Shown: piece by piece, positions 41,239-46,287 of the stretch | Layout of the letters: each line of letters begins with the position of its first letter | How positions within the stretch are numbered: position 1 is the stretch's first letter | Assembly: GCA_017499595.2 (NCBI GenBank) | Contig: CM038998.1 | Span: forward strand, 930,001 to 994,000 | Reading direction: 5' to 3' | Length of the DNA: 64,000 bases | From: Psilocybe cubensis | Lineage: Eukaryota | The notes under the pieces: model-generated | The model's input: the letters and a program-made list of their open reading frames with translations, nothing else | Database searches by the model: none | Told to the model about the DNA's origin: nothing | Position numbers and translations under genes: made by a program

Positions 41239-42198
41239 ATGTCGTCCGACCTCCAGTGGCTCCTTCTCCGCGTATGTTTATCTTGGAACAGCAATAATGG
41301 TCGAAGCGCTGACATATGGTGTAGAAAAACAGCTCCTTCATCGTGAAGCGAGTTCCTGAGGGACCAGTCTTCTCCAAGGAGCCCGTGCGTTTTGTCCGTT
41401 GAAGTCTTGGTCTGGAGGTGCTGAAATTCGTAGTAGGGAAACCTCCGCAACTTGAACTCCTTCAAGTACTCCGGTCTTGCCAACTCCAAGGTGCGCTTTG
41501 TTAGCCTATGTCAAATCTGATTCGGATTCTCATTTCTTATTTATCTAGACCATTGACGTCAAGGAGCAGGCCGGCAGCATCAAGATTGTTACTCGCAAGG
41601 TCAAAGCCTCCCCTCACGCTGTTGGAAAGGCCTACGCCACCACTTCCATTCGCCCCCGATCAGGAGGACGCCGCGCTCTTGGTGTTGCTTCTGGTATCGC
41701 TAAGCGCGGATACCGCCCTGACCTCCGCACTGTGAGTATCAGATTCATTCATATATCATTTTTGGCCTCTTTTTCTTCTTCATGTACAAAATGTATGTTT
41801 CTTTTATCCAACTCGACGCACTCCCAGTAGAACCCTCTGGACATACTGCAAAGTAAATGAAGGAAGGGTGTGGAAATCTGTGCAAAATCAACCCCATTTA
41901 CTGGAGCCGATCAAACTCCAGTAGATACCTCGCCTTGTCGCTATCGGGCACCGTTCGATGCTCCTCGCGGATGTACCGACTCGTTGGTGATAACATCTTT
42001 TGACTGAACTATGCTTATTTTTGTTTCCCTTTTCAATGCTCTATTTGCATCCTATCTTGCAAAGATCGATATTGACACTTGTCTTGTGCTTAGGCTGCCC
42101 TCGCTCGCGTCTCTGCTCTCATTGCTGCTCAGCGGGAACCCAAGCCTTCACCGGCGAAGAAGGTCAGGGGAAAGAAGGCTGCTACTTTCCTCGGATGA
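41239..42198 (+). CDS. RPL28: 60S ribosomal protein eL28 (L28e), 5 exons
   Basis: MSSDLQWLLLR KNSSFIVKR...FSKEP GNLRNLNSFKYSGLANSK...GYRPDLR AALARVSAL...FLG*. The last intron (41732-42093) is 362 nt, far longer than the gene's other introns. Confidence 0.95.
41818..41998 (+). ncRNA. Candidate intronic box H/ACA snoRNA
   Basis: Hairpin 1: GCAC 41818-21 / GTGC 41880-83 lower stem and ACCCT / AGGGT upper stem. H box AAATCA at 41885-90, 15 nt from the upper stem. Insert hairpin TACTGGAG/CTCCAGTA. Hairpin 2 closes TTGTCGCTA/TGGTGATAA, then ACA at 41993-95 plus 3 nt. Confidence 0.65.
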
Positions 42199-42463
42199 TT
42201 GTATTTGTATCGCTCCCACTTCTACACACTCTGGTTCATGCATATGCAATATACAACCATGCCCCATGCCACTCACTGCTATCCATTAAGTTATTCGAAG
42301 TTTGCTTTGATATGAAATTGTTACATCCTTTGGCTACAAATACATTATACAGAGCACAGGGTTTCGATGAATATGTTACAAGTTAAACCCGCAGCCAGAT
42401 ATTGGTCTTGGATCGCTTCCAACGTTTGCAATAGCAAAGCAAACGAGATTCGTCCTCTCTCCT

Positions 42464-42956
42464 TCAAACACCGAGGGATTTACCTGCAGGCTGGGAGATT
42501 CGCATCCCCATTCCATGACTCTTGCTGATGTTAGCTTCTCGTGTAGGCCGAGTCATTTCGACCTTCCTATGGGCAAGTTCCTGCAACTTCTTCTCGATTT
42601 TCTCTTTCTTTGGAATTTCTTCCTCGTTGTGTTGGTAGTTGTGGTGGAGTGGTGCATCTCCGCCAGTTGGAGGTGCAGGCCTTGGATAATCAGGAGCTGC
42701 TTCATCTACCTTGGAGGTGTCTGTGTTGGTAGTCTCTCTGTATTTCTCTTAGAGTCAAGATCCGCAACATTAGGCAAGCTTTCACGTACACATGCGAATG
42801 TGGCTTGGGCTTCGCGGAGATCGAGAGGCGCCTGCCTCCGACTTTCACTGGATTCAAGTGGGCCCAAGAGTTGTCGTTAGCTAGTCCACACTTGGTGTAG
42901 TTTGGATTGTTCGACTCACTGGCAGGAGCGTGCGAGATGGTAGCGGTCTGTGCCAT
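42464..42956 (-). CDS. DAP1/Dap (death-associated protein 1)-like small protein, 122 aa, 3 exons
   Basis: Exons 42956-42920, 42847-42790 and 42737-42464 (369 nt, in frame). Donors GTGAGT and GTACGT, CAG acceptors. Product MAQTATISHAPAMKVGGRRLSI...LQELAHRKVE...GMRISQPAGKSLGV*. Confidence 0.75.
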
Positions 42957-43579
42957 ATTGGATGAGAGCAATGATAGGATGGTCTTGTTCTCTGGGTACT
43001 AGTAACAGGGCTAAAGCTAGTAAACAAGGTGTAGTTCTGGGGCAAGGTTGTCCGGATCCCACCTCTAGTTGGAGTTCCAGGGGCCAGGCCGTGCGCCAAT
43101 AGTGCTAATTATACTTTCGCACGTGGATCGGAGGTACCCACTCTCGACCTCATGACCTCGGGCGTCGCCAGACGTGTCTAGGTAGCAAGCACAAACAAGG
43201 CTTTGAGACATTTCTGTTTGGAAGATCAATTGCATTGGATAGTTTTGCATTAGCTAGGTAAAACCGTCGAAGTTGAATGGGTCATCGCAGTGATCTGATG
43301 GGAGGGGCCACGGACACCGGCGCTTAGCTTCAGCGCCTAAATAACTTGAATGAAAAAAAGGACAAAACAATCAAAGTACTCCAAAAGAATCAGATTTTTT
43401 TCTTACGTTCGACACAGAGAAGGCTAAGTAACTTACGATCGTCCTGCTATAGCACAATCATGGTTTCAACAACCAAGGCGAGGTTGTGGAAGATAGGTTG
43501 TTTTCAAACTCAAAAGATCATTGGCAAATCACCATTAAACAAAACAATCTAATTATACTAGATACTTCTGGCACAAAGC

Positions 43580-46287
<2,708 letters not shown>

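What the first reader, a model, noticed from the sequence alone, without database searches (positions are those of the whole stretch)
42464..42956. Hidden fungal DAP1/Dap-like gene: candidate ribosome-hibernation factor
Seen: three exons splice in frame to a 122-aa, probably disordered protein that the ORF track misses. It carries HAPAMKVGGRRL, ELAHRK and C-terminal RISQPAGK. Known (recalled from memory): human DAP1 has HPPAVKAGGMRI, VAHQK and HIQQPRK in the same order. Vertebrate Dap/Dap1b insert their C-terminus into the exit tunnel of dormant egg ribosomes, and DAP1 is mTOR-regulated. The first motif only appears after splicing, which argues against chance. Inference: mushrooms may use a Dap-type tunnel plug for spore or starvation dormancy, a system I do not know to be described in fungi.
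Basis: partly seen in the sequence, partly recalled or inferred. Interest (0 to 1): 0.8.

Follow-up and report, generated by a model that had tools for sequence, protein, structure and literature searches.

The report
Mushroom relative of animal DAP protein
A small three-exon Psilocybe gene, spliced as predicted, encodes a disordered protein whose two best-conserved ends match those of the animal DAP/Dap1b proteins that plug dormant ribosomes, so mushrooms may silence ribosomes the same way, but that function is untested.

Summary
On the minus strand, exons 42956-42920, 42847-42790 and 42737-42464 join to 369 nt, giving 122 aa. One contig of run X1 skips exactly the two predicted GT..AG introns, while the DNA runs X3 and X4 are colinear. 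The organism is Psilocybe cubensis. The public model (146 aa, "hypothetical") keeps intron 1 and so destroys the N-terminal motif. The protein belongs to an unnamed family: 137 representatives at E<=1e-3, and every named hit is a basidiomycete. The only invariant columns among 84 members are one Arg in the N motif and the Gln-Pro of the C motif. These lie inside the two motifs that define animal Dap/Dap1b. Pfam DAP is the recurrent hit, in 56 of 84 members, but never reaches its cut-off (best I saw 26.2 against 27 bits). PDB profile hits are Dap1b and Dapl1 plus one spurious chain. HMMER similarity covers only the N-terminal part. The C motif is short, and its tail is 4 residues longer than in vertebrates. 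I put DAP-family homology at about 0.8 and exit-tunnel plugging at about 0.5; the latter is wholly inferred. I found no paper on a fungal Dap.

The parts
42920..42956 (-). Exon 1, coding part: ATG at 42956, 12 codons plus 1 nt (M1-A12 and the first base of M13). The observed transcript reaches at least 42991, with no upstream ATG in 42991-42957.
42848..42919 (-). Intron 1: 72 nt, GTGAGT...GCTAAC...CAG, in frame and stop-free. It is retained in the public 146-aa model.
   Evidence: (joint 42847/42920 in the X1 contig)
42790..42847 (-). Exon 2, 58 nt: rest of M13, then KVGGRRLSISAKPKPHSH and two bases of V32.
42738..42789 (-). Intron 2: 52 nt, GTACGT...ATACAG.
   Evidence: (joint 42737/42790 in the X1 contig)
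42464..42737 (-). Exon 3, coding part: 274 nt including the stop TGA at 42466-42464. The transcript runs on colinear to at least 42200.
42828..42932 (-). N motif H9-R19 (HAPAMKVGGRR), encoded by 42932-42920 plus 42847-42828 and interrupted by intron 1. It is followed by L-S-I-S (an RRxS site). Family counts of 84: A12 82, V15 81, G17 83, R18 82, R19 84, S21 81.
42677..42691 (-). Family-specific central motif DYPRP (residues 48-52). Counts of 84: D 80, Y 81, P 82, R 81, P 82.
42539..42574 (-). AHRK (87-90; weakly conserved) and TRPTR (94-98; P96 in 72 of 84). This block lies partly in the one predicted helix (74-93 of the ortholog).
42464..42502 (-). C-terminal motif RISQPAGK (111-118), tail SLGV and the stop. 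Q114 and P115 are invariant (84 of 84); R111 81, I112 79, K118 66 of 84. Seven residues follow QP.

Best explanation
This is a real, spliced, transcribed Psilocybe cubensis gene for a 122-aa basic, proline-rich, largely disordered protein. It belongs to an unnamed family found across Basidiomycota, which is most likely a divergent branch of the animal DAP/DAPL1 (Dap1b) family. By analogy with zebrafish and Xenopus Dap1b/Dapl1, the likeliest mechanism is as follows. In non-growing states the protein binds the large ribosomal subunit. The C-terminal 35-40 residues thread up the polypeptide exit tunnel. The invariant Gln-Pro then sits at the peptidyl-transferase end, and the N motif (HPPAxKVGGRR) docks at the tunnel exit. 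Elongation is thereby blocked and the ribosome is kept in store. The 7 residues after QP (3 in vertebrates) would reach further past the catalytic centre. The conserved RRxS next to the N motif is a plausible nutrient-kinase switch for release. Shown: gene structure, splicing, family, conservation pattern, and likeness of the N motif to DAP. Inferred: homology of the C motif, all ribosome binding, timing (spores or starvation) and regulation.
For: Splicing and the 122-aa product. Family: 28 relatives from exon 3 alone and 137 representatives at E<=1e-3. Every named hit is a basidiomycete: Agaricomycetes of many orders, Ustilaginomycotina and Wallemia. Link to DAP: PF15228 is listed for 7 of 10 orthologs and 56 of 84 members, best E 1.2e-5, against at most 4 of 84 for any other family. 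Jaminaea P0154 scores 26.2 bits (E 1.6e-5) and P0094 24.4 bits. The A1 profile against 177,635 PDB sequences finds only Dap1b (E 0.12). The A2 profile finds Dap1b (0.019) and Xenopus Dapl1-B (0.043). The Atlas neighbours are DAP-bearing clusters. Same constraint pattern as in animals: the only invariant columns of 84 members are R19, Q114 and P115. They fall in the N motif P-A-V-K-A-G-G-M/K-R and the C motif I-Q/H-Q-P-R-K/R-x. Leesch et al. place that N motif near Rpl31 at the exit, and that C motif in the tunnel with an invariant Gln at the nascent-chain position (passages). The fungal consensus is H-P-P-A-V-K-V-G-G-R-R. The QP motif always sits 5-9 residues from the end: 141 of 153 have 6 or 7. 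That is the pattern expected for a tail measured against a fixed cavity. Same physical class as DAP: 122 aa, pI 9.6, 12 Pro, pLDDT 62.6. Human DAP1 is 102 aa, about 15% Pro and an NMR-proven IDP (passages).
Against: No member I saw reaches Pfam's gathering score of 27 bits, and the closest ortholog P0002 scores only 13 bits. The best stretches of the Pfam and PDB matches lie in the N-terminal part (profile positions 2-49) in most members whose rows I saw, and reach 3-84 of 98 in two. None reaches the C-terminal end. The window's ORF pieces alone gave no Pfam family, and its last 37 aa gave no PDB hit. P0105 alone gave no PDB hit. A spurious PDB chain (5inw_A) scores E 0.027, between the two Dap hits, so those E-values are marginal. 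The Agaricomycete profile found no animal-type sequence among the 69 lowest-ranked of its 137 hits in 1.84 billion representatives, which are the ones I read. The 84 members share the motif by descent, so 56 of 84 is close to one observation, not 56. In the C motif, R-K is replaced by A-G-K and the tail is 4 residues longer. The fungal central motifs (DYPRP, RPTRD) have no counterpart that I could test. There are no data on ribosome association, on expression in spores, or on phosphorylation.
Confidence: 0.5

Rival explanations
1. True DAP homolog, but its conserved job is signalling rather than plugging ribosomes. Like mammalian DAP1, it would be a TOR-pathway phosphoprotein that brakes autophagy or affects growth and cell death when dephosphorylated.
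For: Human DAP1 is reported as an mTOR substrate (S3, S51) whose dephosphorylated form suppresses autophagy (passages citing Koren et al. 2010, which I did not read). The fungal family keeps an RRxS site (S21 in 81 of 84).
Against: The invariant fungal positions lie in the two motifs that contact the ribosome in animals, not at identifiable phospho-sites. The strict distance of QP from the C-terminus is hard to explain by a signalling role. The two roles are not mutually exclusive.
Confidence: 0.2
2. Not a DAP relative. It would be a basidiomycete-specific small disordered protein (for example a hydrophilin-like stress protein or an RNA/nucleolar binder) whose 9-11-residue N motif and I-x-Q-P tail resemble DAP by chance or convergence.
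For: All scores are sub-threshold and are driven by one short motif. A spurious PDB hit has a similar E-value. The profile did not reach animals. DYPRP, the family's third strongly conserved block, has no DAP counterpart that I tested.
Against: Two separate terminal motifs occur in the same order and at the same ends. They are also the most conserved parts in both lineages. I estimate, without a computed test, that I-x-Q-P within the last dozen residues arises by chance at about 1e-3 for this composition. The Atlas neighbours agree independently. If the likeness were convergent, it would still point to the same binding sites.
Confidence: 0.15
3. Not a functional protein-coding gene: transcribed noise, or a long 3' UTR or antisense transcript of the neighbouring eL28 gene.
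For: The X1 contig runs on from this gene into the convergent eL28 gene, so its depth cannot be assigned to either. RNA support comes from one contig.
Against: Two canonical introns are removed in frame. Full-length orthologs exist in dozens of genera. Of 5 coding differences between strains, 4 are synonymous.
Confidence: 0.02

Closest known systems
Vertebrate Dap1b/Dapl1 and Dap (Leesch et al., bioRxiv 10.1101/2021.11.03.467131, passages seen; PDB 7oya, 7oyc, 7oyd)
   Same: Both are small, basic, proline-rich and unstructured. The N motif is near-identical: zebrafish shows GHPPAVKAGGKR in the, 34 alignments, and the fungal consensus is HPPAVKVGGRR. Both have an I-x-Q-P motif at the extreme C-terminus with invariant Gln-Pro. 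In both lineages the two motifs are the most conserved parts.
   Different: The fungal proteins fall below Pfam's cut-off. Seven residues (range 5-9) follow QP, not 3. A-G-K replaces R-K. Fungal-only blocks DYPRP and RPTRD are present, and RRxS follows the N motif. Ribosome binding is shown for the animal proteins only.
Human DAP1 (Pfam PF15228; Wiedemann et al. 2020, PMC7973646, passages seen)
   Same: Similar length class (102 against 122 aa), high proline content and intrinsic disorder. Regulation by nutrient signalling is plausible.
   Different: The mTOR sites S3 and S51 could not be mapped onto the fungal protein. The autophagy role is untested in fungi.
SNOR of Schizosaccharomyces pombe (Nature 2026, PMC13345908, passages seen)
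   Same: A fungal factor of dormant 80S ribosomes that puts a C-terminal tail into the exit tunnel and touches hypusinated eIF5A. It is the known fungal analogue in function.
   Different: [quoted passage not shown] It shares no sequence with this family, which is all tail.
ESM Atlas Mucoromycota cluster (234 members, about 125 aa, PF15228 on 18%)
   Same: It is the nearest cluster outside the family by language-model features (0.89 for P0002, 0.85 for P0154). Its proteins have the same length.
   Different: No sequences could be retrieved, so the relation is a lead only.

Membership tests
DAP/DAPL1 (Pfam PF15228) | Whole-protein score at or above Pfam's gathering cut-off (27 bits) | tested here: not met
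   Best score I saw is 26.2 bits (P0154). The best E among 84 members is 1.2e-5. The closest ortholog P0002 scores 13 bits. The window's ORF pieces gave nothing. The spliced window protein itself could not be sent to the tool because it is a joined sequence.
DAP/DAPL1 (Pfam PF15228) | N-terminal motif P-A-V-K-A-G-G-M/K-R (Leesch et al.) | tested here: met
   The window has P-A-M-K-V-G-G-R-R at residues 11-19. The family consensus is P-A-V-K-V-G-G-R-R with R19 in 84 of 84. HMMER aligns it to Dap1b and Dapl1-B.
DAP/DAPL1 (Pfam PF15228) | C-terminal motif I-Q/H-Q-P-R-K/R-x ending the protein, with invariant Gln | tested here: inconclusive
   I-S-Q-P-A-G-K is present, with Q and P in 84 of 84 and I in 79 of 84. 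But 7 rather than 3 residues follow QP, and R-K is not adjacent. HMMER gives no match for this end alone.
DAP/DAPL1 (Pfam PF15228) | Small (about 100-115 aa), basic, proline-rich, intrinsically disordered | tested here: met
   122 aa, pI 9.6, 12 Pro, GRAVY -0.99. AF2 gives pLDDT 62.6, pTM 0.20 and one helix. The Atlas model has pLDDT 0.59.
DAP/DAPL1 (Pfam PF15228) | C-terminus inserted in the 60S exit tunnel; inhibits translation | not testable with these tools
   Needs ribosome biochemistry or cryo-EM.
DAP/DAPL1 (Pfam PF15228) | TOR-dependent phosphorylation (human S3, S51) | not tested
   The sites could not be aligned. Only a conserved RRxS is seen (S21 in 81 of 84).
Unnamed basidiomycete 'DYPRP' family (alignment A2) | Full-length match to the family profile with N motif, DYPRP and C-terminal RIxQP | tested here: met
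   The spliced window protein scores 140.7 bits against the A2 HMM, versus 129.5 for the public intron-retaining model. All three motifs are present.

The most novel reading that the evidence does not exclude
The Dap-type exit-tunnel plug is not an animal invention but an ancestral opisthokont ribosome-hibernation device. Basidiomycota (and perhaps Mucoromycota) would have kept it, and the model yeasts would have lost it or diverged beyond recognition, which would explain why it was missed. The mushroom version would carry a longer tail that reaches past the peptidyl-transferase centre, and an RRxS switch that lets PKA- or Sch9-type nutrient kinases release stored ribosomes at spore germination.
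Probability: 0.35. Interest if true: 0.8.

Novelty: new variant of a known kind. Interest (0 to 1): 0.62.

Why it matters
Dap1b/Dapl1 is described as conserved "across animals". A 2024 review says it is unclear how widely each hibernation-factor family extends. A 2026 minireview on fungal dormancy does not mention ribosomes, hibernation or translation at all. If confirmed, a basidiomycete branch would move the origin of the tunnel plug back to the common ancestor of fungi and animals. It would also give a candidate mechanism for translational silence in basidiospores. The family occurs in transformable species such as Schizophyllum commune, which could serve for functional tests. In practical terms, it shows that a quarter of public gene models of this family lack the N motif (61 of 248). 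At least in P. cubensis the cause is a tiny first exon and an in-frame intron, so automated annotation hides the family's diagnostic feature.

Tried and rejected
1. Pfam scan of the two raw ORF pieces of the window: 0 families at E<=10.
2. The last 37 aa of the window protein against PDB sequences: 0 hits. P0105 alone: 0 hits.
3. Search of the window's own genome for PF15228: no genome is held.
4. A profile-profile test against animal or Mucoromycota DAP sequences could not be done, because none could be fetched. One search listed only the best 120 of 163, all Agaricomycetes. The most divergent member, P0161, led only to Wallemia.
5. A fourth exon from the GTAAAT at 42483: rejected, because the X1 contig is colinear over 42200-42737.
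6. Expression level: the X1 contig depth (963) cannot be used. The contig also covers the convergent eL28 gene, and contig depth ranks nothing.
7. Sequencing-run listing: no RNA holder is listed on record. X1 and X2 are guesses.
8. Structure-based search was not run, because the model is disordered.
9. Complex prediction was not used: no partner protein was in hand, and the interface lies inside rRNA.
10. Literature searches with no result on a fungal Dap:
- 'PF15228': 0 papers.
- DAP1 + fungi + hibernation: 0 papers.
- Dap1b + fungi: 6 papers, none of the 3 whose Dap1b passages I read describing a fungal homolog.
- Hibernation factor + spores + fungal + cryo-EM + exit tunnel: 4 papers. I saw the search listing for all 4 and read Dap1b passages of two; nothing I saw described this family.
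- Six ortholog locus tags: 0 papers.
- A loose six-term search whose top 10 all lacked the DAP term.
- The Nature version of Leesch et al. is not held.
- Supplements are closed, so ortholog IDs in supplementary expression or proteome tables could not be seen.
11. Earlier-findings look-ups returned nothing.

Full report
THE GENE. The finding lies on the minus strand. Reading 43200-42300 in reverse complement shows an ATG at 42956. After 37 nt comes a GTGAGT donor, then a CTAAC branch site and a CAG acceptor 72 nt on. A 58-nt second exon ends at a GTACGT donor, and an ACAG acceptor follows 52 nt later. The third exon runs to TGA at 42466-42464. A script that joined 42956-42920, 42847-42790 and 42737-42464 gave 369 nt and 122 codons. 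No single ORF holds this protein: the six-frame list shows two overlapping pieces of 98 and 94 aa.

SPLICING IS OBSERVED. Of five public runs that hold the stretch, four were laid on 42200-43200.
- One 999-nt contig of run X1 skips exactly 42738-42789 and 42848-42919, with ends CT..AC on the + strand, i.e. GT..AG on the gene's strand.
- The same contig reaches 42991 upstream. It is colinear from 42737 down to 42200 and beyond, so the GTAAAT inside the last codons is not used and there is no fourth exon.
- Runs X3 and X4 carry the unspliced genomic form.
- X2 covers only part of exon 3.
This is one contig of one run, and X1's RNA label is the tool's guess; the spliced form itself is the evidence for RNA. 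The contig continues into the convergent eL28 gene, so its depth says nothing about expression. There is no ATG between 42991 and 42957. Of the five coding differences between the contig and the window, four are synonymous and one is Y66H in a variable stretch.

ORGANISM AND PUBLIC ANNOTATION. Exon 3 alone found 28 proteins.
- The best is a 100% match to 'hypothetical protein JR316_0000273 [Psilocybe cubensis]', 146 aa.
- That model equals the spliced protein except that intron 1 is read through: 24 extra residues, and M13 replaced. The gene is therefore annotated, but with its N motif broken.
- Against an HMM of 84 family members, the spliced form scores 140.7 bits and the public model 129.5.

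THE FAMILY. A profile of 22 orthologs (A1) found 137 representatives at E<=1e-3 among 1.84 billion proteins; 90 are at <=1e-10. Every hit that carries an organism name is a basidiomycete:
- Agaricales, Boletales, Polyporales, Russulales, Auriculariales, Sebacinales and Cantharellales;
- Ustilaginomycotina (Jaminaea, Sympodiomycopsis, Exobasidium, Pseudozyma flocculosa, Violaceomyces);
- Wallemia.
All are called hypothetical, and the precomputed Pfam column is empty for all 28 and for all 120 listed rows. I saw no ascomycete, but I could not search eukaryotic genomes, so absence is not shown.

In an alignment of 84 full-length members (A2), the only invariant columns are R19, Q114 and P115. The conserved blocks are:
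- H-P-P-A-V-K-V-G-G-R-R-L-S;
- D-Y-P-R-P;
- a looser K-x-E-x-T-R-P-T-R-D;
- R-I-x-Q-P-A-G-K.
The QP pair always lies 5-9 residues from the end (7 in 98, 6 in 43, of 153). Of 248 fetched proteins with the C motif, 61 lack the N-motif core. These are truncated or mis-spliced models like the P. cubensis one.

IS IT A DAP? Evidence for:
- Pfam DAP (PF15228) was listed for 7 of 10 orthologs (E 0.0011-0.2) and for 56 of 84 members at E<=1, best 1.2e-5. No other family was matched by more than 4.
- Jaminaea rosea P0154 reaches 26.2 bits and P0094 24.4, against a cut-off of 27.
- The A1 profile's only PDB hit among 177,635 sequences is zebrafish Dap1b (E 0.12).
- The broader A2 profile finds Dap1b (0.019) and Xenopus Dapl1-B (0.043). 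P0154 alone also finds only Dap1b (0.42).
- The ESM Atlas puts a Mucoromycota cluster with PF15228 on 18% of its members (0.89 and 0.85) and chordate DAP1 (0.82 and 0.81) next after the family's own cluster.

Evidence against:
- Nothing I saw passes Pfam's threshold.
- The matches cover the N-terminal part only: profile positions 2-49 as a rule, and 3-84 of 98 in two members.
- A spurious chain (5inw_A, E 0.027) sits between the two Dap hits.
- The fungal profile did not bring up animal proteins at E<=1e-3.
- The 84 members inherit the motif together, so the count of 56 is not 56 independent trials.
- The C-terminal end alone gives no HMMER signal.

THE DECIDING ARGUMENT. Pattern, not score, tips the balance. 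Leesch et al. (preprint, passages read) state that all Dap1b/Dapl1/Dap proteins share two motifs.
- P-A-V-K-A-G-G-M/K-R at the N-terminus crosslinks near Rpl31 at the tunnel exit.
- I-Q/H-Q-P-R-K/R-x at the C-terminus lies in the exit tunnel. Its invariant Gln takes the place of the last residue of a nascent chain and hydrogen-bonds to the hypusine of eIF5a.
The three invariant fungal columns fall on the invariant Arg of the first motif and the Gln-Pro of the second. The motifs are in the same order, at the same two ends, in a protein of the same size and physical kind. The window protein has pI 9.6, 12 Pro and no W/F/C, and AF2 gives pLDDT 62.6 with one helix at 74-93. Human DAP1 is 102 aa, about 15% Pro and an NMR-proven IDP. 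I put homology at about 0.8. I could not run a profile-profile test because no animal or Mucoromycota DAP sequence could be fetched.

HOW IT PROBABLY WORKS (INFERRED). Selection has held fixed exactly the residues that touch the ribosome in animals. The tunnel and the catalytic centre are among the most conserved structures known, and zebrafish Dap1b binds rabbit ribosomes. The simplest reading is therefore a ribosome-bound silencer:
- the tail lies in the tunnel;
- Gln-Pro sits at the peptidyl-transferase end;
- the N motif sits at the exit.

Differences from the animal proteins:
- Seven residues follow QP, against three in zebrafish (Gln105 of 109) and Xenopus (Gln109 of 113). The fungal tail would therefore reach about four residues further into the tRNA cleft.
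- A-G-K replaces R-K.
- DYPRP and RPTRD are fungal-only blocks.
- RRxS follows the N motif (S21 in 81 of 84). It fits the consensus of basophilic nutrient kinases by my own knowledge and was not tested.

I give the plug mechanism about 0.5. The main rival is a DAP1-like signalling or autophagy role, which could also coexist with plugging. The roles in spores and starvation are speculation; no stage-specific data were available.

CONTEXT. The gene lies tail-to-tail with a ribosomal protein eL28 gene that ends at 42198. It lies downstream of a two-domain AAA ATPase gene at about 43580-46222 on the minus strand. I did not test whether this neighbourhood is conserved.

NOVELTY. In the held library I found no paper describing a fungal Dap homolog.
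- The SNOR papers treat Dap1b as a vertebrate oocyte factor.
- A 2024 review leaves the range of each hibernation family open.
- A 2026 fungal dormancy minireview mentions neither ribosomes nor translation.
- One NMR paper calls DAP1 'highly conserved in most eukaryotes' without fungal data in the passages I saw.
- The Atlas suggests Pfam already tags some Mucoromycota proteins as DAP.
- The Nature version of Leesch et al. and all supplements were not available.
I class the finding as a new variant of a known kind: a divergent, unannotated basidiomycete branch with an extended tail. It is moderately to highly interesting, and it rests on sequence inference only.

Noticed in passing
window 42848-42919 (minus strand): The public P. 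cubensis model (P0001, 146 aa) reads through the 72-nt in-frame, stop-free intron 1, adding 24 residues and destroying the N motif. The X1 contig shows that the intron is removed.
   Followed up: yes
family proteins fetched: 61 of 248 proteins with the C-terminal motif lack the N-motif core. Examples such as P0005 and P0021 show odd N-termini. The short 5' exons seem to be mis-called often in this family.
   Followed up: partly
window 41549-42198 (+ strand): A convergent ribosomal protein eL28 gene lies here: Pfam Ribosomal_L28e, E 1.1e-4 on one exon piece, with the last exon ending at 42198. The X1 contig runs through both genes, so their 3' ends overlap or abut.
   Followed up: partly
window 43580-46222 (minus strand): A multi-exon gene for an ATPase with two AAA domains and AAA lid domains lies upstream of the DAP-like gene. 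It has a Ser/Thr/Pro-rich basic N-terminus. I did not determine which AAA subfamily it belongs to.
   Followed up: partly
window 42478-42483 (minus strand): A good-looking GTAAAT donor lies inside the last codons (G117-K118). It is not used in the X1 contig.
   Followed up: yes
window 42828-42836 region; residues 18-23: R-R-L-S-I-S follows the N motif (S21 in 81 of 84 members). It looks like a basophilic-kinase site that the zebrafish Dap1b alignment lacks, whereas Xenopus Dapl1-B shows M-R-V-S.
   Followed up: no
PDB chain 5inw_A: The family profile hits a 'putative angiotensinogen' chain through a D-Y-P-E-P stretch in a low-complexity region, at E 0.027. I take this as spurious. It marks how weak the PDB E-values are.
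   Followed up: no
P0094, P0134, P0143, P0146: A sub-group that includes a Coprinopsis sp. protein lacks DYPRP, or (P0143, P0146) the N-terminal part altogether, but keeps the C motif; P0094 and P0134 also keep the N motif. P0094 scores second best against Pfam DAP (24.4 bits).
   Followed up: no
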